Origin: a virus
Length of the DNA: 44,709 nucleotides
Strand: one strand, 5' to 3'
UHGV virus genome: UHGV-0231863
The position numbers were made by a program, and so were the translations under genes. Positions 37,927 to 43,868 of this stretch are shown here, piece by piece. Within the stretch, counting starts at the first letter, position 1, and the number at the start of each line of letters is the position of its first letter. Under the pieces are notes generated by a model. The model was not told where the DNA came from, did no database searches, and saw only the letters and a program-made list of their open reading frames with translations.

Positions 37927-37931
37927 ATAGA

Positions 37932-37955
37932 AAGGCCCCGCTAGGGGCCTTAGCT
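37932..37955. terminator. bidirectional terminator-like hairpin
   Basis: AAGGCCCC-gcta-GGGGCCTT between convergent portal and KilA-N genes; same stem as 4487 and 17013. Confidence 0.55.
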
Positions 37956-38609
37956 TTAACGTATATTAGCCGCACATTTACGCACAACCCGAGGTATCGC
38001 CTCTTTCAGTTCACCCCATGTATTAACGGCCTCCATGTCAAGAAGTGTCACCAGAGCTTTCTGGATGTCACTTCGCAACTGATTGGTCTTCGCATCCTGA
38101 GAGTCCCATGTATCGAAACCCGTTACGTCGCGGATATCTACGGATTCCTTTACCGCTTTAGCCACCTGTATGAAGTGTCCACTGTGGCCAATTCTTCCCT
38201 CCGTGCGCTCAATCATTCGACTAACGGCAGCGTTAAGCTCGACAAAGCTCACCGCGCCAATGTTTCGTAGTTCTACCTGCCGTTGTGTGATAAAGCGGTC
38301 GATAACGAGGAAATGGAAATAGGCGCTGTATTGCTCAGCAATATATACTGCCAGATGGAGACATGCAAAGGTGCGACCGTTTCGGCCTTTCGTCGCCCTT
38401 ATGGCATTCTCGATTCCGAGTTGTTTTTCGCATTCCTCCTTGAAAATCTTGAAGCCATCCGTTGACATGACCTGGCGAAGCTCTCTTGTCCCCATGCCGT
38501 TGTCTAAACGCCAACGGTTCATCTGGTCAACCAGCTCGTTTACGTTAATAAAGTTTTCACGGTCAAAAGTGATTTCTCCATAAGGGAACTCTAATGTTTG
38601 CAGTTTCAT
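37956..38609 (-). CDS. KilA-N domain protein (antirepressor-like regulator)
   Basis: GRNGRTFACLHLAVYIAEQYSAYFHFLV resembles the KilA-N/APSES core; lone minus-strand gene inside the head module with own promoter and AGGAG SD. Confidence 0.5.
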   Translation of the reverse strand: MKLQTLEFPYGEITFDRENFINVNELVDQMNRWRLDNGMGTRELRQVMSTDGFKIFKEECEKQLGIENAIRATKGRNGRTFACLHLAVYIAEQYSAYFHFLVIDRFITQRQVELRNIGAVSFVELNAAVSRMIERTEGRIGHSGHFIQVAKAVKESVDIRDVTGFDTWDSQDAKTNQLRSDIQKALVTLLDMEAVNTWGELKEAIPRVVRKCAANIR

Positions 38610-38637
38610 GCGTATTTCTCCTGTTTAAGTGTACGTT

Positions 38638-38665
38638 TAAATTCTACATTTGAATGTAGAATTTA
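38638..38665. promoter_or_regulatory. 28-bp palindrome (13-bp perfect arms)
   Basis: TAAATTCTACATT tg AATGTAGAATTTA in the divergent region between KilA-N and head morphogenesis genes. Confidence 0.6.
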
Positions 38666-38670
38666 ATCAA
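38641..38670 (-). promoter_or_regulatory. promoter TTGATT-18-TAGAAT for KilA-N gene, overlapped by 28-bp palindrome
   Basis: Minus strand; palindrome TAAATTCTACATT-tg-AATGTAGAATTTA at 38638-38665. Confidence 0.45.
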
Positions 38671-38751
38671 GCTCTTTTTAACCTTAAATGCGTATGATTA
38701 TGCCAATACGTTACCGACTGATATGATTGTCATATCGAAACAGGAGGGTAT

Positions 38752-40689
38752 ATGAGCTTACTGACATCTCTAATCAGCCACCAGATTTGGCTGCAACGCG
38801 CCGCATCCGGTGAAGTAAAAGACCTCGCACCATTCATTCAGGAAATGCGGGACGAAATCAAACGGCAGGTGCTGCTATTCGGCGACGACGGCCGCAGCAC
38901 CGCACGGCTGAATAAACTGTTACGTGACCTTGAAGAAGCTCTGACGGGGCTCACAGGTGACTGGCAAACAAAGCTGACAGAAGACCTTAAGGAACTGGCG
39001 GCGTATGAGGCTGAGTGGAACGTAAAGACACTGGCCACCAACGTTAACGCGGAATTTGTTACGCCTACCGCCGAGCAAGTGTGGGCCGCTGCCGAGTTTC
39101 AGCCGCTATCGTTAAGTGACAAGCCTGTTGATTTCACTAAGCTAATGTCAGGCTGGGGTGAAACCGAAGTCGCGCGCCTTGTGACCGGCGTTAAGATGGG
39201 CTTTGTACAAGGCCAGACAACACGGCAGATTGTTAAGAATGTCGTAGGCGCTGGTGGGCTGGCGGACATCTCTGAGCGTAACGCAGCTACGGTAATACGC
39301 ACCGCGCTGTCTCATGTATCCAACGAAGCCCGTAACGAGACGTACCGCCAGAACGATGACATCATCGAGAAATACGAGTGGGTGTCGACGCTGGACAGCC
39401 GTACCAGTACAACGTGTTTCACGGCTGAAACAGAATTAGCGCCCATCGCGGGGATGGACGCGGTAATGCGCGGACTCTATTCAGGAAAAATCCTTACCAT
39501 CGAACTTTCCAACGGCGAGAAGTTCAGTGGCACCCCGAAACACCCTGTACTCACGCAATACGGATGGACTCCGCTTGATGAACTCGACCCAACTAAGCAT
39601 GTCTTGTATACCACTGTTGACAAAGTGACTGTGCTCGAAACAGTGAAGAACATAAACATGCCAGCCAGAGCGGATTATATTTTTAATACGCTCGCTGATT
39701 TCCCCATCAGGAAAATGGTAAGCACGAGTCCCGCGGCAACAGATTTCTATGGCGATGGAGTGGGACTCAATGGCAAAATCGACATTGTACGGGCCGATTG
39801 CAAACTGCGGAACTACGTCCATGCCAGCGGAATTAAACAATTCAAAAGCGAGGGTTTCAGTCTTATTCATAGCGCCGCTTTGCTGTCGGACGATAGCTCT
39901 GGCGATTTTCTCCTCCGGGGTGAATGTCCTGTGAGTGTGCCCGCGCTTAGCGAGGCCAAGTGTTTTGACCATAGAATAGAAAACTGTTTTGCTTACTTGG
40001 GTCCTTCTTATGCACTCAATAGGCGGGACGCCGGACTCGAACAATTCTATAGCCCTTTTTTGATTCAAAATGGTGTCGTTAGAAACCCAACCACGGGGTC
40101 GATCATGCATGAGTCCGAGCTTCTTGAGAAATGTTGTTACCGTGGTGGTAGTGACGCCGTAATTCTTGGCTATGATGCTGGCGGGAGTGCCATCTCGGTA
40201 CAAAGAACAAATATCATCCGCATAAGCGTCGAGTTTAGAACGTGCCATGTTTATACCCTCTCTAGTAGTCAAGGATATTATACAGCAGGTAGTGCGATAG
40301 TCAAGAATTGCAGGGCCAGAGACGGGATGACGTGGGAAATCGGTAAAGGGCCGATGCCTCCGGCCCATTTTGGGTGCAGAAGCACCACTGCGCCTGTAAT
40401 CAGTTCGGAGTTCGACTTCCTCGATAAAGGCGCAAAACGCGCGGCTAAGGGTGCGGACGGCGGTATGCAGGTAAGTGCGGACACCACCTATTACGAGTTC
40501 CTGAAACAACAACCGGCATGGTTTCAGGACCAGGCGCTTGGTCCTGTTCGCGGTAAGATTTTCCGCAACAGCGGTATATCACCAGAGGAGTTTCGCGTAA
40601 TATCTGTAGATGGTTTCGGGAATCCGCTCACGCTTAAGCAGATGGCGGAACTCGATAAACGTGTTGCTGATTATCTGAAAGGGGAATAA
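38752..40689 (+). CDS. head morphogenesis protein (Mu F / SPP1 gp7-like) interrupted by an intein
   Basis: Extein junction reconstitutes DSRTSTT|CRARDGMTW...PPAHFGCRSTT, matching the D-x-R-x-R...H...G...CRC-type Mu F motif; 298 in-frame codons are inserted. Confidence 0.8.
   Translation: MSLLTSLISHQIWLQRAASGEVKDLAPFIQEMRDEIKRQVLLFGDDGRSTARLNKLLRDLEEALTGLTGDWQTKLTEDLKELAAYEAEWNVKTLATNVNAEFVTPTAEQVWAAAEFQPLSLSDKPVDFTKLMSGWGETEVARLVTGVKMGFVQGQTTRQIVKNVVGAGGLADISERNAATVIRTALSHVSNEARNETYRQNDDIIEKYEWVSTLDSRTSTTCFTAETELAPIAGMDAVMRGLYSGKILTIELSNGEKFSGTPKHPVLTQYGWTPLDELDPTKHVLYTTVDKVTVLETVKNINMPARADYIFNTLADFPIRKMVSTSPAATDFYGDGVGLNGKIDIVRADCKLRNYVHASGIKQFKSEGFSLIHSAALLSDDSSGDFLLRGECPVSVPALSEAKCFDHRIENCFAYLGPSYALNRRDAGLEQFYSPFLIQNGVVRNPTTGSIMHESELLEKCCYRGGSDAVILGYDAGGSAISVQRTNIIRISVEFRTCHVYTLSSSQGYYTAGSAIVKNCRARDGMTWEIGKGPMPPAHFGCRSTTAPVISSEFDFLDKGAKRAAKGADGGMQVSADTTYYEFLKQQPAWFQDQALGPVRGKIFRNSGISPEEFRVISVDGFGNPLTLKQMAELDKRVADYLKGE
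39481..40248 (-). CDS. antisense-nested gene: tandem HTH + DUF559/Vsr-like endonuclease-fold protein
   Basis: Minus-strand ORF from ATG 40248 (antisense to His499 codon) with GAGGG SD and TTGACT-16-TATAAT promoter; IIAKNYGVTTTTVTTFLKKLGL and IECIRRTQVSKTVFYSMVKTLGL HTH-like; QFAIGPYNVDFAIESHSIAIEI...GWHVYVL matches DUF559 pattern. Confidence 0.55.
   Translation of the reverse strand: MARSKLDAYADDICSLYRDGTPASIIAKNYGVTTTTVTTFLKKLGLMHDRPRGWVSNDTILNQKRAIELFESGVPPIECIRRTQVSKTVFYSMVKTLGLAKRGHTHRTFTPEEKIARAIVRQQSGAMNKTETLAFELFNSAGMDVVPQFAIGPYNVDFAIESHSIAIEICCRGTRAYHFPDGEISERIKNIIRSGWHVYVLHCFEHSHFVNSGIQDMLSWVEFIKRSPSVLREYRVFRGATELLAVGKFDGKDFS
40277..40304 (-). promoter_or_regulatory. sigma70-type promoter TTGACT-16-TATAAT for the antisense intein-nested gene
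   Basis: Minus strand reads TTGACTatcgcactacctgctgTATAAT, then GAGGG SD and ATG; lies within the intein C-terminal coding region. Confidence 0.55.
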
Positions 40690-41150
40690 TGATGGGCTTT
40701 TTCAAAGTAACTGACGTACCGTCACGCCGCGTAGTCCAGTACGCCCGCGTGTCTGGCTCTGGCGAGAACGTGGTGTTTATTGAAGACGAAAGTGTACTCG
40801 GAACACCAGTTGACGATATGCCGTTTGCGGACAAGACCGGTATTGCGCTGCCAGCGGCAGGTATGCTTTATGAGATTCAGTACCTGGCGGATGCCGGTGA
40901 TGTGTATTTCTCCGTACAACCGCAGGACGCTGAACTGGCAGACGGCAGCGCAAATATCGCTGTCGAAGTTAAGGCGGGCAAAGCACCATATGCGCTGACC
41001 TGGTACAAAGACGGGAAGGAAGTGGTAAACGCCCCGGAAGAGGCTCTGTCTCTGACGGTTAACGCAGTTGGTGAATACTTCGTTAAAGTCACTGATGCCG
41101 ATGGTATAGAGGCCGTAAGTAAAGCAGCGAAGGTTACTAAGCCAGAATAA
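40689..41150 (+). CDS. Ig-like domain virion protein
   Basis: C-terminal YALTWYKDGKEV...GEYFVKVTD pattern typical of Ig-like phage surface domains. Confidence 0.45.
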   Translation: MMGFFKVTDVPSRRVVQYARVSGSGENVVFIEDESVLGTPVDDMPFADKTGIALPAAGMLYEIQYLADAGDVYFSVQPQDAELADGSANIAVEVKAGKAPYALTWYKDGKEVVNAPEEALSLTVNAVGEYFVKVTDADGIEAVSKAAKVTKPE

Positions 41151-41989: not shown

Positions 41990-42018
41990 TTGCCTTGCAT
42001 GTTGGAATAATTTATTCT
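41990..42018 (+). promoter_or_regulatory. possible promoter TTGCCT-17-TATTCT upstream of scaffold/capsid genes
   Basis: Weak match; shares upstream ATGTTGGAATAA with region at 41213. Confidence 0.25.
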
Positions 42019-42071
42019 TGACATGTAAATCCGGGTGGCCCGGGTTCCAACGTCCAGGGGACATACTGACT

Positions 42072-42773
42072 ATGAATCGTTTTTTACGTTATCCGTTCCA
42101 GGAAGAAGCTGGAGCAGAAGATAAATCAGGCGGCGGTGACGCACCTAAAATGTACACAGCCGAAGAAGTGCAGGCGCTGATTGAGAAAGAAGTCGCCGGG
42201 CTTAAGGCTAACCAGGAAGCATTGCTGAACGAGAAGAAAGAAGCCGCTCGTAAAGCAAAAGAGGCCGAAGAAGAGCGGCAGCGTGCACACCAGGAGGCCC
42301 TGAAAGCCGCCGGTAAGATGGACGAGTTCGAAAAGACGATTCGTAGCCAGTATGACCCGGTGTTAGCCGAGAAAGATGGTCGCATCTCCAGAATGGCAGA
42401 GCGCATCCTCGGCAGCGAACGCAAAGCGGTGTTAGGTTCTTTCGCGGGTGACTTCATTACCCCGGAAGCAGTAGACATTCTCGCGCCGTTCGTTAAGACT
42501 GAGTTTGAAGGTGATGATGTGGTTACTAAGTTTGTCGGCGCGGATGGCAACGTAGTCACAACTGACCCGGAACAGTTCCGCAAATACCTGCGCGAACATA
42601 AAGCGTTTTCGCATTTGATTAAAGCAAATGCAGCTTCCGGCGGCGGGGCTTCCGGTAGCAAAGGCGGCGGGGCCGCACCAGCGTTTAAAGACATGAGTGA
42701 AGCAGAGCGTTTAGCCCTGTATAAATCGAACCCTGCCGAATTTGAACGGCAACTTAAAGCCCTGAGGAAATAA
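42072..42773 (+). CDS. scaffolding protein (putative)
   Basis: Internal ATG of track ORF; highly charged Ala/Glu/Lys coiled-coil protein immediately upstream of capsid gene. Confidence 0.6.
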   Translation: MNRFLRYPFQEEAGAEDKSGGGDAPKMYTAEEVQALIEKEVAGLKANQEALLNEKKEAARKAKEAEEERQRAHQEALKAAGKMDEFEKTIRSQYDPVLAEKDGRISRMAERILGSERKAVLGSFAGDFITPEAVDILAPFVKTEFEGDDVVTKFVGADGNVVTTDPEQFRKYLREHKAFSHLIKANAASGGGASGSKGGGAAPAFKDMSEAERLALYKSNPAEFERQLKALRK

Positions 42774-42775
42774 TA

Positions 42776-43825
42776 ATGGCAATTACCACTATCGGCGATA
42801 TCGTAACTGGCAACATCCCGGTCCTGGCGTCTTATATGACCGAGGACCCGGTAGAAAAAACCGCGTTCTTCCAGTCTGGTATTCTGACCCCGACTCCGTA
42901 CGCTGCCGAGATTGCTCGCGGTCCGTCCAACGTCGCCAACATTCCTTTCTGGAAAGCGATTGATACTTCTATCGAGCCTAACTACTCGAACGATGTTTAT
43001 CAGGACATCGCTACCCCGCGTAATGTGCAAACCGGTGAGATGATGGCCCGCGTTGCGTACCTGAACGAAGGTTTCGGTCAGGCGGACCTGACTGTCGAAC
43101 TGACCAGCCAGAACCCTCTGCAATCCGTAGCGTCCCGTCTGGATAACTTCTGGCAGCGTCAGGCACAACGCCGTCTGATTGCTACCGCGCTCGGTCTGTA
43201 CAACGACAACGTAGCTGCTACCGATGCTTACCATACGCAGAACGATATGGTTATCGACGTGTCCGCTACTCTGGGCTTCGACGCAGGTGCGTTCATCGAC
43301 GCCACTCAGACTATGGGCGATGCTCTGATGGGTAACGGTGGTGAGGTGCTGGGCGCTATCGCGATGCACAGTTTCGTTTATGCACAGGCGCGTAAGCAGC
43401 AGCTTATCGACTTCATTCGCGACGCTGACAACAACACCATGTTTGCTAGCTACCAGGGCTACCGTGTGATTGTTGACGACAGCATGACTGTAGTTGGTAC
43501 TGGTCCAAGCCGTAAGTTCATCTCCATCATCTTTGGCAACGGTGCCATCGGTTATGGTGAAGGCAACCCGTCCAACCCGCTGGAATACGAACGTGAAGCG
43601 TCCCGCGGCAATGGTGGCGGCGTTGAAACCCTGTGGACCCGTAAGACCTGGTTGCTGCACCCACTGGGCTACAGCTTCACCAGCGCGGTAATCACCGGCA
43701 ACGGCACCGAGACTGTAGCCCGCTCCGCTTCCTGGCAGGACCTGGCGAACGCCTCCAACTGGAACCGTGTGGTTGACCGTAAGCATGTACCGATTGCCTT
43801 CCTGGTAACTGGTGTCGGGGCTTAA
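42776..43825 (+). CDS. major capsid protein
   Basis: 349 aa following scaffold, strong hairpin immediately downstream; composition typical of capsid proteins. Confidence 0.8.
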   Translation: MAITTIGDIVTGNIPVLASYMTEDPVEKTAFFQSGILTPTPYAAEIARGPSNVANIPFWKAIDTSIEPNYSNDVYQDIATPRNVQTGEMMARVAYLNEGFGQADLTVELTSQNPLQSVASRLDNFWQRQAQRRLIATALGLYNDNVAATDAYHTQNDMVIDVSATLGFDAGAFIDATQTMGDALMGNGGEVLGAIAMHSFVYAQARKQQLIDFIRDADNNTMFASYQGYRVIVDDSMTVVGTGPSRKFISIIFGNGAIGYGEGNPSNPLEYEREASRGNGGGVETLWTRKTWLLHPLGYSFTSAVITGNGTETVARSASWQDLANASNWNRVVDRKHVPIAFLVTGVGA

Positions 43826-43842
43826 GGTTAAGATATAATCGA

Positions 43843-43868
43843 GAGGGACTTCGGTCCCTCTTTTCATT
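43843..43868 (+). terminator. hairpin/terminator after major capsid gene
   Basis: GAGGGAC-ttcg-GTCCCTC + TTTTCATTT. Confidence 0.6.

What the first reader, a model, noticed from the sequence alone, without database searches (positions are those of the whole stretch)
39481..40304. Independent antisense gene with its own promoter nested inside an intein
Inside the in-frame intein, the opposite strand carries a 255-codon ORF beginning at an ATG antisense to the His499 codon (40248), preceded by a GAGGG Shine-Dalgarno and a near-consensus promoter TTGACT-16-TATAAT (40277-40304) that overlaps the intein's C-terminal splicing block. Its product looks like a real protein: two HTH-like segments and a DUF559/Vsr-type PD-(D/E)XK pattern (QFAIGPYNVDF...IAIEI...GWHVYVL), though with CC where the family usually has DG. 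Intein endonucleases are normally fused in frame on the same strand, so an antisense, separately transcribed nuclease-like gene is an arrangement I do not recognise as described; from memory, Vsr-related free-standing endonucleases have been reported with split inteins. The forward frame stays open across the whole overlap, so both strands appear to be under coding constraint.
Basis: partly seen in the sequence, partly recalled or inferred. Interest (0 to 1): 0.92.

Follow-up and report, generated by a model that had tools for sequence, protein, structure and literature searches.

The report
Intein carrying an antisense homing-endonuclease gene
A self-splicing protein insert (intein) in a coliphage head-assembly gene carries, on the opposite DNA strand, a real and separately expressed DNA-cutting enzyme gene that most likely copies the insert into other phages; it is a rare arrangement, first described for phages of actinobacteria in a 2025 preprint.

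Summary
A 298-aa class-1 intein (39415-40308) interrupts a MuF-type minor head gene (38752-40689, +). On the minus strand, codon-for-codon in register, lies a 255-codon ORF (40248->39481) with a GAGGG ribosome-binding site and a TTGACT-16-TATAAT promoter, all inside the intein.

The minus-strand gene is real:
- Profile hits to resolvase-type HTH domains and to I-Bth0305I.
- Against a 72%-identical relative, the central intein has omega 0.18 on the minus strand and 1.07 on the plus strand.
- All 80 IMG/VR relatives fetched have the nuclease ORF antisense and in register inside an intein-bearing ORF (MuF-type where classified).
- The -10 box, SD and ATG are written into the codons of splicing blocks F and G and are conserved across the family.

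The intein is 99.6-99.9% identical in four other phages whose flanking gene sequence is only about 90% identical, so it spread recently.

The architecture is not new. Gosselin, Arsenault and Gogarten (bioRxiv 2025.01.02.630785) describe "anti-sense VSR-like HEN" inteins in actinophage MuF genes, and those inteins are homologues of this one. This is a new, enterobacterial-phage member of a known kind. Nuclease activity, homing, splicing and promoter function are inferred, not tested.

The parts
38752..40689 (+). Host gene: MuF / SPP1 gp7-type minor head (head morphogenesis) protein precursor, 645 aa including the intein. The spliced product would be 347 aa.
   Evidence: ORF. Pfam Phage_Mu_F 3.5e-8, above the curated cut-off. 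Intein-free alleles in related Kagunavirus phages are 1044 nt.
39415..40308 (+). Class-1 intein, 298 aa (host residues C222-N519). It carries Cys1, block B T261/H264, terminal Asn519 and +1 Cys520. The penultimate residue is Lys, not His.
   Evidence: Boundaries come from comparison with intein-free alleles. Family alignment: C1 in 77/79, terminal N in 79/79, +1 C in 79/79, T261 and H264 invariant. Pfam Intein_splicing scores 8e-4 here and matches 56 of 66 related host ORFs.
39415..39681 (+). N-terminal splicing (Hint) region of the intein, blocks A and B. From 39481 onward it is overlapped by the 3' end of the antisense gene.
   Evidence: Plus-frame omega is 0.05 for residues 222-243. For 244-310 both frames are constrained (plus 0.52, minus 0.23).
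39682..40191 (+). Plus-frame 'linker' of the intein (host residues 311-480), at the position where canonical inteins carry an in-frame endonuclease domain. It is open but not constrained at the amino-acid level.
   Evidence: Window versus L015: differences at plus codon positions 1/2/3 are 77/31/40. Plus omega is 1.07, with 92 of 170 residues changed. There is no Pfam hit in this stretch. The single-sequence AlphaFold model has pLDDT 21-27 here, but the whole model is poor, so this is uninformative.
40243..40308 (+). C-terminal splicing blocks F (CHVYTL) and G (...GSAIVKN) of the intein. Their codons double as the ATG, SD and promoter of the antisense gene.
   Evidence: Only 2 nucleotide differences in the last 60 nt of the intein (host residues 500-519, 40249-40308) against L015, compared with about 30% divergence elsewhere.
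39481..40248 (-). Antisense homing-endonuclease gene: 255 codons plus TGA, in codon register with the host frame.
   Evidence: Homologues P0001-P0049. tblastn finds 59 phage records, and the annotated records list a MuF, minor-head or other capsid/head gene (or a hypothetical protein) under the match. Minus-strand omega 0.18. AlphaFold pLDDT 88.3, pTM 0.66.
39961..40245 (-). Two tandem helix-turn-helix DNA-binding domains of the antisense protein (about residues 2-43 and 57-96).
   Evidence: Pfam HTH_7 1.6e-4 here and in 10 of 10 family members, best 3.5e-9. PDB profile hits: 2lvs tandem HTH 3e-10 and gamma-delta resolvase HTH. Helices appear in the model.
39505..39918 (-). Vsr-like / I-Bth0305I-like nuclease domain (about residues 111-248). 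Invariant residues are E131 (39856-39858), Q148, D157 (39778-39780) and E168 (39745-39747); R187 is nearly invariant.
40256..40260 (-). Shine-Dalgarno GAGGG of the antisense gene, the reverse complement of the Thr-Leu codons of block F.
   Evidence: An SD-like motif lies at -18..-4 in 39 of 48 distinct family upstream regions, against 12% of control windows.
40277..40304 (-). Sigma-70-type promoter TTGACT-16-TATAAT of the antisense gene, wholly inside the intein. The -10 box is the reverse complement of the Tyr-Tyr codons (TAT TAT) of block G.
   Evidence: 11 of 12 consensus matches. It is identical in L015 despite 28% protein divergence. Relatives carry TGnTATAAT or TATAAT at one of two fixed positions, even in loci with 60-65% GC. 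Function has not been tested.
39429..39461 (-). Terminator-like hairpin with a weak U-tract, 20 nt downstream of the antisense stop codon and still inside the intein.
   Evidence: RNA fold -23.2 kcal/mol, z = -3.4. The core stem is retained in L015. It cannot be separated from coding constraint on intein block A, so its role is inferred only.
39409..39414 (+). Extein codons immediately upstream of the insertion point. They read ACAACG (Thr-Thr) in all intein-bearing alleles and ACGATT (Thr-Ile) in the alleles compared that lack an intein at this site. This is a probable co-converted or homing-site-altering flank.
   Evidence: window, L001, L002, L004, L005 versus L094, L095, L003.
40309..40314 (+). 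+1 Cys and the following codon of the C-extein. They read TGCAGG in intein-bearing alleles and TGCAGA in alleles lacking an intein at this site.

Best explanation
The region is one self-contained mobile element of 894 bp that encodes two proteins on opposite strands.

Plus strand. The element is a class-1 intein. It is translated as part of the MuF-type head protein and must splice itself out. Its splicing domain is built from the first 90 or so and last 25 or so residues. These are joined by a roughly 170-residue spacer whose only requirement is to contain no stop codon.

Minus strand. In exact codon register, the element carries a complete expression cassette. It has a sigma-70 promoter and a Shine-Dalgarno sequence written into the codons of splicing blocks G and F. 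Its ATG is the reverse complement of the block-F histidine codon. A 255-codon gene and a terminator-like hairpin follow.

The gene product has two resolvase-type HTH domains and a Vsr-like nuclease domain related to the EDxHD homing endonuclease I-Bth0305I.

Inferred mechanism. The nuclease is made from its own transcript, independently of the structural-gene mRNA. It binds and cuts MuF alleles that lack the intein, at or near ...AGTACGATT|TGCAGAGCC.... Recombinational repair from the intein-bearing genome in a mixed infection then copies the whole element, along with a few flanking bases.

Shown here: both ORFs and the expression signals; homology and fold of the nuclease; purifying selection on the minus strand; the conserved architecture across the family; and the signature of recent horizontal spread.

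Inferred, not shown: promoter activity, timing of expression, DNA cleavage and its site, and protein splicing.
For: 1. Anatomy of ORFs, SD, promoter and register.
2. The minus-strand protein is real.
   - HTH_7 in 10 of 10 and MTES_1575 in 6 of 10 family members.
   - PDB profile hits to 2lvs, 3hrl, 3r3p and resolvase HTH.
   - AlphaFold pLDDT 88.3.
3. Selection.
   - Window versus L015, gapless alignment: exteins vary mostly at plus position 3. The central intein varies mostly at plus position 1, which is minus position 3.
   - There, minus omega is 0.18 and plus omega 1.07.
   - 248 of 250 family pairs agree. So do 1061 of 1194 pairs when aligned by the host frame.
4. Conserved architecture.
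   - In 80 of 80 IMG/VR loci, and in L003, L006-L011 and L013, the nuclease ORF lies antisense and in register inside a much longer ORF of 277-1208 aa.
   - Of 66 such host ORFs (window plus 65 IMG/VR loci), 56 match Intein_splicing. Their MuF-type or head-gene matches are Phage_Mu_F 27, VG15 7, portal 6 and min_cap2 4.
5. Expression signals are conserved beyond what the amino acids require.
   - The block-F His codon is CAT in 46 and CAC in 15 loci. CAT is 42% of all His codons in the same ORFs.
   - -10 boxes occur in 41 of 48 and SD motifs in 39 of 48 upstream regions, against 8% and 12% of controls. The rare Ile codon ATA is used to build TATAAT in 60-65% GC loci.
6. Mobility.
   - The intein is 99.6-99.9% identical in four phages whose exteins are 89-91% identical.
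   - The intein is present or absent among close relatives.
   - Intein-bearing alleles share diagnostic flank substitutions.
   - A second, diverged intein of the same type sits at another Cys, 22 residues downstream, in phage GZMU_E2010 and in Salmonella Jersey-like phages.
7. The same architecture and homologous genes are described for actinophages.
Against: - No experimental data exist: no transcript mapping, no cleavage assay, no splicing assay.
- Pfam hits for the window protein itself fall below the curated cut-offs (HTH_7 22.2 versus 23.8 bits; MTES_1575 20.1 versus 38.2).
- The histidine of the EDxHD motif is not conserved in this family. The window subfamily has E-I-C-C-R-G where relatives have E-V-x-G-G-G-W, so the catalytic chemistry may differ.
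- The intein has Lys rather than His before the terminal Asn.
- The terminator-like hairpin has a poor U-tract.
- Family pair counts are not phylogenetically independent.
- Head-on transcription against a late structural operon could limit expression.
Confidence: 0.85

Rival explanations
1. The minus-strand ORF is a chance or fossil open frame. It would be a by-product of codon usage in the plus frame, and the intein would be a mini-intein with a long degenerate insert and no working endonuclease.
For: - Long in-register antisense open stretches occur elsewhere in this window, up to 355 codons. A 592-aa minus ORF lies over the scaffold and capsid genes.
- Pfam hits of the window protein are below the curated cut-offs.
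- GenBank annotators did not call the ORF.
Against: - Minus-strand omega is 0.18 against plus-strand 1.07 in the core.
- Family-wide third-position excess falls on the minus strand.
- The confident fold matches Vsr and I-Bth0305I.
- Profile hits go to independent families.
- The ORF is intact in all 80 metagenomic relatives.
- ATG, SD and -10 are conserved.
Confidence: 0.03
2. The antisense nuclease is real but is not, or is no longer, the intein's homing enzyme. It might serve the phage as a weapon against co-infecting relatives (marker exclusion). It might act as a DNA-binding regulator. Or its transcript might act as an antisense RNA that tunes MuF expression.
For: - The His of the EDxHD motif is not conserved, and the window subfamily has an unusual CC motif.
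- Two HTH domains could act as a repressor.
- The transcript is fully complementary to the MuF mRNA (sequence).
- The preprint notes that some VSR-like intein groups look vertically inherited.
Against: - Near-identical inteins sit in about 90%-identical backgrounds. Presence or absence is polymorphic at exactly the insertion point, with co-varying flanks. This is the classic homing signature.
- In every related locus examined the nuclease gene lies antisense inside an intein-bearing ORF, which fits a dedicated partnership.
- Invariant acidic residues align with I-Bth0305I E170 and D196.
Confidence: 0.08
3. The gene is expressed but not from the internal promoter. Instead it would be read from transcripts that start further downstream on the minus strand or arise by pervasive antisense transcription. 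The TTGACT-16-TATAAT would then be a coincidence of block-G codons.
For: - The -10 hexamer partly follows from conserved hydrophobic residues (Ile-Ile, Tyr-Tyr) of block G.
- Consensus scans alone are not evidence of function.
Against: - Codon choice goes beyond the amino-acid constraint: ATT-ATA in 60-65% GC loci, and extended TGn in many.
- 41 of 48 upstream regions carry a -10 box against 8% of controls, at two fixed positions.
- There is no neighbouring minus-strand gene directly upstream; the next gene, 40689-41150, is on the plus strand.
- The last 60 nt of the intein are almost invariant between the window and L015.
Confidence: 0.08
4. The plus-frame central region also encodes a functional domain, such as a cryptic in-frame endonuclease or DNA-binding module. 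The whole overlap would then be dual-coding.
For: - The plus frame is open in every family member.
- Some plus-frame columns, such as F332-H333-G334-D335, are nearly invariant.
Against: - Plus omega is 1.07, with 54% of residues changed against L015.
- The conserved plus-frame motif DF(H/Y)GDG is simply the reverse complement of the nuclease strand's (I/V)A(I/V)E(I/V) active-site strand (sequence).
- There is no Pfam hit in this stretch.
- The preprint reports no recognisable structure for the in-frame region.
Confidence: 0.04

Closest known systems
Anti-sense VSR-like HEN inteins ('VSR -1 ORF') in MuF-like minor capsid genes of actinobacteriophages (Gosselin, Arsenault & Gogarten, bioRxiv 10.1101/2025.01.02.630785, v2 Oct 2025)
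   Same: - Same host gene family (MuF-like minor capsid).
- A contiguous intein with the nuclease on the antisense strand in frame -1.
- The nuclease matches 3R3P / EDxHD.
- Evidence of horizontal transfer.
- The listed members (Vivi2, Fosterous, Affeca, Angelicage, Malisha, Sejanus) are direct tblastn homologues of the window protein, E 1e-11 to 2e-5.
   Different: - The host is an E. coli Kagunavirus, whereas the preprint covers only PhagesDB actinophages.
- The window intein sits at a different Cys of MuF from most relatives.
- The preprint text holds no mention of a promoter, a start codon or Escherichia.
- The wide spread in proteobacterial phages and 351 IMG/VR stretches does not appear in the sections and passages of the preprint read here.
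I-Bth0305I and the EDxHD (Vsr-like) homing endonuclease family (Taylor 2011, PMC3239194; Dassa 2009, PMC2677866)
   Same: - Bipartite build: an N-terminal HTH-type DNA-binding region plus a C-terminal Vsr-fold nuclease.
- E and D catalytic positions are conserved with identical 26-residue spacing.
- Association with mobile intervening sequences of phage genes.
   Different: - Known members are same-strand genes in group I introns, free-standing genes, or genes lying between the halves of split inteins.
- The motif His (H213) is not conserved here.
- Sequence identity is only about 13%.
[quoted passage not shown]
   Same: An intein plus a separately translated Vsr-like endonuclease gene carrying its own control elements, mainly in phages.
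   Different: - There the host gene is broken into two ORFs and the endonuclease is on the same strand.
- Here the host frame is continuous across the endonuclease gene, because the gene is antisense, in register, and avoids TTA, CTA and TCA.
Anti-sense LAGLIDADG genes inside inteins (Synechocystis DnaX, Chloroflexus SpoVR-like; Gorbalenya 1998 and Gogarten 2002, as cited) and in actinophage MuF inteins
   Same: A homing-endonuclease gene on the strand opposite a contiguous intein.
   Different: A different nuclease family (LAGLIDADG). I could not read the primary papers, so the comparison rests on the preprint's account.
ShiLan element: out-of-frame hidden HNH endonuclease in an in-frame insertion of a phage methylase (Arsenault 2025, PMC11855218)
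   Same: A mobile insertion kept open in the host frame while the endonuclease is read in another frame.
   Different: The nuclease is on the same strand, no splicing domain is present, and it belongs to the HNH family.

Membership tests
Class-1 intein (Hint-domain protein-splicing element) | N-terminal Cys/Ser nucleophile at the upstream junction | tested here: met
   C222 (TGT, 39415-39417). Cys in 77 of 79 aligned family members.
Class-1 intein (Hint-domain protein-splicing element) | Block B TxxH motif | tested here: met
   GTPKHPVLT. T261 and H264 are invariant across 81 sequences.
Class-1 intein (Hint-domain protein-splicing element) | C-terminal Asn followed by a Cys/Ser/Thr +1 extein residue | tested here: met
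   N519|C520. N in 79 of 79 and C in 79 of 79.
Class-1 intein (Hint-domain protein-splicing element) | Penultimate His (common but not universal) | tested here: not met
   Lys518 in the window. Across the family: His 49, Ser 24, Lys 5.
Class-1 intein (Hint-domain protein-splicing element) | Significant match to an intein/Hint profile | tested here: inconclusive
   Pfam Intein_splicing scores 8e-4, 19.7 bits, against a cut-off of 35.8 for the window. 56 of 66 related host ORFs match at E <= 1e-3, best 4.9e-13.
Class-1 intein (Hint-domain protein-splicing element) | Precise in-frame presence or absence relative to intein-free alleles | tested here: met
   Removing 39415-40308 gives a 1044-nt gene colinear with the intein-free alleles L094 and L095.
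Class-1 intein (Hint-domain protein-splicing element) | Protein splicing activity | not testable with these tools
   Inferred only. The four intein-bearing relatives come from records of named phages with a stated E. coli host or isolation source.
Anti-sense VSR-like HEN intein of MuF-like minor capsid genes (Gosselin et al. 2025) | Contiguous intein in a MuF-like minor capsid gene | tested here: met
   The host frame is open through the whole intein.
Anti-sense VSR-like HEN intein of MuF-like minor capsid genes (Gosselin et al. 2025) | Endonuclease ORF on the antisense strand in frame -1, between or over the splicing blocks | tested here: met
   40248->39481, in codon register. The same register holds in 80 of 80 IMG/VR loci and in the actinophage loci L006 and L010.
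Anti-sense VSR-like HEN intein of MuF-like minor capsid genes (Gosselin et al. 2025) | Homology to the published members | tested here: met
   tblastn of the window protein: Vivi2 1e-11, Fosterous and Affeca 6e-10, Angelicage and Malisha 2e-10, Sejanus 2e-5. All are listed as 'VSR -1 ORF' in the preprint's table.
EDxHD / Vsr-like homing endonucleases (I-Bth0305I) | Vsr-type nuclease fold | tested here: met
EDxHD / Vsr-like homing endonucleases (I-Bth0305I) | Sequence-profile homology to the I-Bth0305I catalytic domain | tested here: met
   The nuclease-domain profile hits 3r3p at E 5.2e-6. The full-length profile hits at 1.2e-3.
EDxHD / Vsr-like homing endonucleases (I-Bth0305I) | Conserved E and first D of the motif (I-Bth0305I E170, D196) | tested here: met
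   E131 and D157 are invariant in 50 sequences, with the same 26-residue spacing.
EDxHD / Vsr-like homing endonucleases (I-Bth0305I) | Conserved His general base and second Asp (H213, D222) | tested here: not met
   The aligned His position is variable across the family. The window has H178 nearby, but many relatives have no His. Instead E168 is invariant and R187 nearly invariant. I therefore treat it as a relative, not a strict member.
EDxHD / Vsr-like homing endonucleases (I-Bth0305I) | N-terminal HTH/NUMOD DNA-binding region | tested here: met
   Two HTH_7-type domains.
EDxHD / Vsr-like homing endonucleases (I-Bth0305I) | Site-specific cleavage of the element-free allele | not testable with these tools
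   Only indirect support: the recent-spread signature.
Pfam DUF559 (PF04480) / REase_MTES_1575 (PF18741) | Score above the curated gathering threshold | tested here: not met
   MTES_1575 scores 20.1 bits against a cut-off of 38.2. There is no DUF559 hit for the window protein. Among relatives, MTES_1575 matches 6 of 10 and DUF559 1 of 10 at E < 0.01.
Fractured gene / split intein with intervening endonuclease gene (Dassa 2009) | Host gene broken into two ORFs, each ending or starting with an intein half | tested here: not met
   A single uninterrupted 645-codon host ORF. Host ORFs are continuous in all relatives.
Sigma-70 promoter | -35 and -10 hexamers with 16-18 nt spacing | tested here: met
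   TTGACT-16-TATAAT, 11 of 12. A -10 box is conserved in 41 of 48 family upstream regions.
Sigma-70 promoter | Transcription initiation in vivo | not testable with these tools
   No transcript data are available.

The most novel reading that the evidence does not exclude
The antisense nuclease gene and the intein are not a recent chance pairing. They would be one ancient, co-evolved sense/antisense module whose expression signals are hard-wired into the splicing motifs.

- The block-F His codon CAT is the nuclease ATG.
- The following Leu codon supplies the SD.
- The Ile-Ile or Tyr-Tyr codons of block G supply TATAAT.

This design, always in the one codon register where only three sense codons must be avoided, would have been inherited from a single origin. 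It has since spread through MuF genes of phages of Actinobacteria and Proteobacteria (351 stretches in IMG/VR). It stays almost invisible to gene callers and protein databases.

A corollary is that host-RNA-polymerase transcription of the nuclease, running head-on against the structural-gene transcript, separates nuclease expression in time and amount from the head protein.
Probability: 0.5. Interest if true: 0.65.

Novelty: new member of a known kind. Interest (0 to 1): 0.5.

Why it matters
Inteins are textbook examples of an endonuclease fused in frame to a splicing domain. This element shows the alternative: a separately transcribed nuclease gene on the opposite strand, with the host frame kept open only by avoiding three codons.

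- Tractable system. The architecture has so far been described only for actinophages, in a preprint. Here it sits in a coliphage with a near-consensus E. coli promoter, and related phages have been isolated (KMB36, fEg-Eco06). Transcript mapping, cleavage assays, splicing assays and phage crosses are all straightforward.
- Annotation. Gene callers suppress the nested ORF. The family is absent from PHROGs and NCBIfam as a full-length model. In the 5.8-billion-protein collection it appears almost only on contigs of about 1 kb.
- Overlapping-gene evolution. It is a clean natural case of how promoter, ribosome-binding site and start codon can be encoded inside conserved protein motifs of the other strand.

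Tried and rejected
- A single-sequence search of the 5.8-billion-protein collection gave only 3 hits. This reflects gene calling, not rarity. The profile search, tblastn and the IMG/VR scan showed the real breadth.
- A search with the plus-frame intein gave only 2 hits, so no alignment was available for it. The single-sequence AlphaFold model (pLDDT 31.7) is uninformative, and I do not use it as evidence that the linker is disordered.
- ORF length and openness as evidence were downgraded. Controls showed other long in-register antisense open stretches in the window.
- Strict EDxHD membership was rejected because the motif His is not conserved. DUF559 and MTES_1575 membership at Pfam thresholds is not met.
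- The split-intein ('fractured gene') reading was rejected because the host frame is continuous.
- Literature searches using 'antisense', 'opposite strand', 'overlapping gene', 'MuF' and 'Kagunavirus' found no description. The decisive preprint surfaced only with 'actinobacteriophage' plus 'minor capsid protein'.
- Gorbalenya 1998 could not be retrieved. It is cited second-hand through the preprint.
- The terminator-like hairpin is conserved in L015, but that cannot be separated from coding constraint on block A.

Full report
**What is in the sequence**

The plus-strand ORF 38752-40689 (645 codons) is a MuF / SPP1 gp7-type minor head protein (Pfam Phage_Mu_F 3.5e-8). The window is a Kagunavirus-like coliphage: megablast finds 173 related phage records. 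Most of these have a 1044-nt version of the gene, and four have the full 1938-nt version.

Comparison with the short alleles places an in-frame 894-bp insertion at 39415-40308. It begins with Cys222 and ends with Asn519, followed by Cys520. The insertion has the block B TxxH motif (GTPKHPVLT) and the C-terminal blocks CHVYTL...GSAIVKN, so it is a class-1 intein. The penultimate residue is Lys rather than His.

On the minus strand an ATG at 40248 is the reverse complement of the His499 CAT codon. It opens a 255-codon ORF that ends at 39481. GAGGG lies 7 nt upstream. TTGACT-16-TATAAT occupies 40304-40277, which is the best promoter-like match in the region. A hairpin with a weak U-tract follows the stop codon at 39461-39429. 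All of these features lie inside the intein.

The two frames share codon boundaries. The plus frame therefore stays open as long as the minus gene avoids TTA, CTA and TCA, and it uses none of them (P about 0.002).

**Is the antisense ORF a gene?**

Length alone does not settle this, because other long in-register antisense open stretches exist in the window. Three independent lines of evidence do settle it.

1. Homology to families that have nothing to do with inteins.
   - A profile of ten family members hits a tandem-HTH protein (2lvs, 3e-10), the gamma-delta resolvase HTH, a DUF559-like endonuclease (3hrl, 1.5e-5) and the catalytic domain of the homing endonuclease I-Bth0305I (3r3p).
   - A profile of the nuclease domain alone hits 3r3p at 5.2e-6.
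   - Pfam HTH_7 matches 10 of 10 members and REase_MTES_1575 matches 6 of 10.
2. Structure.
   - With a 50-sequence alignment, AlphaFold gives pLDDT 88.3. The model has two three-helix HTH domains and an alpha/beta nuclease core.
3. Substitution pattern. IMG/VR contig L015 carries the same intein at the same site with 72% nuclease identity and no indels. The table shows the comparison with the window.

| Region (host residues) | Differences at plus codon positions 1/2/3 | Plus omega | Minus omega |
|---|---|---|---|
| N-extein (1-221) | 70/48/134 | not computable (dS saturated) | 1.00 |
| Central intein (311-480) | 77/31/40 | 1.07 | 0.18 |
| N-terminal splicing region under the nuclease 3' end (244-310) | 22/8/18 | 0.52 | 0.23 |
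| Last 60 nt of the intein (500-519) | 1/0/1 | 0.29 | 0.29 |

In the exteins, differences pile up at plus-strand third positions. In the central intein they pile up at plus first positions, which are minus third positions. There, 92 plus-frame residues changed against 46 minus-frame residues.

Across the family, 248 of 250 pairs show the same third-position excess on the nuclease strand. So do 1061 of 1194 pairs when aligned by the host-frame translation, which biases against this result.

**How general is the arrangement?**

tblastn of the window protein finds 59 phage records. Wherever a product is named, the gene annotated under the match is a MuF, minor-head or related capsid/head gene. 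The records are mainly Salmonella Jersey-like phages, with Gordonia, Mycobacterium, Aggregatibacter, Idiomarinaceae, Vibrio, Shigella and Escherichia phages.

In the five diverse loci I inspected, the match is antisense to the annotated gene, the ORF is intact and the codon register is the same. An IMG/VR scan found 351 related stretches. In all 80 loci fetched, the in-register antisense frame is open for 277-1208 codons, while the other two antisense frames are short.

Of 66 such host ORFs (the window plus 65 IMG/VR loci), 56 match the intein splicing domain. Matches to MuF-type or head-gene families are Phage_Mu_F 27, VG15 7, portal 6 and minor capsid protein 2 in 4. Most of these inteins sit at the MuF motif HPxC|RC. 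The window's intein sits at a Cys 22 residues upstream.

Phage GZMU_E2010 has the downstream site occupied by a diverged intein. Its antisense nuclease is 25% identical to the window's (E 4e-11).

The protein collection holds the family almost only on contigs of about 1 kb. The two longer contexts I checked were again antisense inside MuF inteins. PHROGs and NCBIfam have no full-length model.

**Expression signals are written into the splicing motifs**

- Start codon. The nuclease start is the reverse complement of the conserved block-F histidine. That codon is CAT (giving ATG) in 46 loci and CAC (giving GTG) in 15. CAT makes up only 42% of all His codons in the same ORFs, and 41% at the penultimate-His position.
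- SD and -10 box. Of 48 distinct upstream regions, 39 have an SD-like motif and 41 have a -10 box matching at least 5 of 6. Control windows on the same strand give 12% and 8%.
- Position. The -10 box sits at one of two fixed positions. It is often TGTGTTATAAT, the reverse complement of Ile-Ile-Thr-His codons next to the splice junction. It uses the rare ATA codon even in 60-65% GC loci.

No transcript data exist.

**Mobility**

The intein is 99.6-99.9% identical in four other phages whose flanking extein DNA is only 89-91% identical. Three of the five variable sites are synonymous on the minus strand.

All intein-bearing alleles read ACAACG|TGCAGG at the junction. The three alleles compared that lack an intein at this site read ACGATT|TGCAGA. 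This is the expected trace of co-conversion or of a homing-site change. Together with presence/absence polymorphism among close relatives, it is the classic signature of recent homing. Homing itself is inferred.

**Comparison with what is known**

- Dassa et al. 2009 described Vsr-like endonuclease genes between the halves of split inteins, on the same strand. They stated that Vsr-like and GIY-YIG enzymes were not known inside inteins.
- Taylor et al. 2011 characterised I-Bth0305I and named the EDxHD family.
- Arsenault et al. 2025 described an out-of-frame, same-strand HNH hidden in an in-frame non-intein insertion.
- Gosselin, Arsenault and Gogarten (bioRxiv 10.1101/2025.01.02.630785) is the decisive paper.
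  - It reports full inteins with LAGLIDADG or VSR-like endonucleases encoded on the antisense strand, and the inteins in MuF-like minor capsid genes all carry non-canonical endonucleases.
  - It credits antisense LAGLIDADG inteins to Gorbalenya 1998 and Gogarten 2002.
  - Its table lists Vivi2, Fosterous, Affeca, Angelicage, Malisha and Sejanus as 'VSR -1 ORF'. These are the very actinophage homologues my tblastn found.

The window element therefore belongs to a described kind. My checks found no mention in that preprint of several things. A term search of its main text finds no 'promoter', 'start codon' or 'Escherichia'. In the sections and passages I read I also saw nothing on the following:
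- occurrence in enterobacterial and other proteobacterial phages, and the scale in metagenomes;
- the invariant register;
- the embedding of ATG, SD and -10 in blocks F and G;
- the frame-specific selection analysis.

The paper on vB-Eco-KMB36 noted only 'a 900-bp intein'.

**Limits**

- Catalytic chemistry is uncertain. E131, D157 and E168 are invariant, but the EDxHD His is not conserved.
- Pfam scores for the window protein are below the curated cut-offs.
- Family pair counts are not independent.
- Promoter, terminator, cleavage, homing and splicing are all inferred.

**Verdict**

The novelty claim is overtaken: this is a new (coliphage) member of the anti-sense VSR-like endonuclease inteins.

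Noticed in passing
window 37956-38609 (-), within the 37927-38751 gap between the portal and MuF genes: A 217-aa minus-strand KilA-N-domain gene (Pfam 2.1e-4), with a promoter-like site at 38670-38641, fills an 825-bp gap. In relatives L001 and L002 that gap is only about 70 bp. The segment is 99.5% identical in one other coliphage (EcoPhCCP1). It is 84-89% identical in 177 Salmonella Jersey-like phages, where it is annotated 'amidase' or hypothetical. It looks like a second horizontally exchanged, opposite-strand insert next to the intein-bearing gene.
   Followed up: partly
window 42089-43867 (-): A 592-codon minus-strand ORF lies opposite the scaffold gene (42018-42773, +) and the genes that follow it. 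I did not test it for homology or selection. It is most simply a chance antisense open frame, and it shows that ORF length alone is weak evidence in this genome.
   Followed up: no
window about 40375-40386 (host residues His-Phe-Gly-Cys); L003 2230-3045: The usual target of this intein family is the MuF motif HPN|C. In phage GZMU_E2010, in coliphage Snoke and in about 30 Salmonella phages that site carries a second, diverged intein with its own antisense nuclease. The window and several Kagunavirus phages read HFGC (CATTTTGGGTGC) there instead of HPNC. This may be a variant of the homing site that resists that second intein; I did not test this.
   Followed up: partly
protein collection hits P0001-P0050; GenBank records PQ141284, OR525703: The antisense nuclease family is almost invisible in annotation. 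It is not called in the GenBank records of intein-bearing phages. In the 5.8-billion-protein collection it appears nearly only on contigs of about 1 kb, probably because a contig that short cannot hold the whole host ORF. It has no full-length PHROG or NCBIfam model.
   Followed up: yes
IMG/VR loci L014-L093 (host-frame ORFs, alignment A3): Six of the 66 host ORFs match the portal protein family as well, suggesting portal-MuF fusions. One matches LAGLIDADG_3, possibly a second intein or a different endonuclease type in the same gene. One matches an ADP-ribosyltransferase toxin domain, as known for some MuF proteins.
   Followed up: no
window 39439-39461 (-) and L015 equivalent: The hairpin after the antisense stop codon (GCGUCCAU...AUGGGCGC) is also the plus-strand coding sequence for the conserved intein residues APIAGMDA. 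A possible terminator would therefore be encoded in splicing block A, mirroring the promoter in block G.
   Followed up: partly
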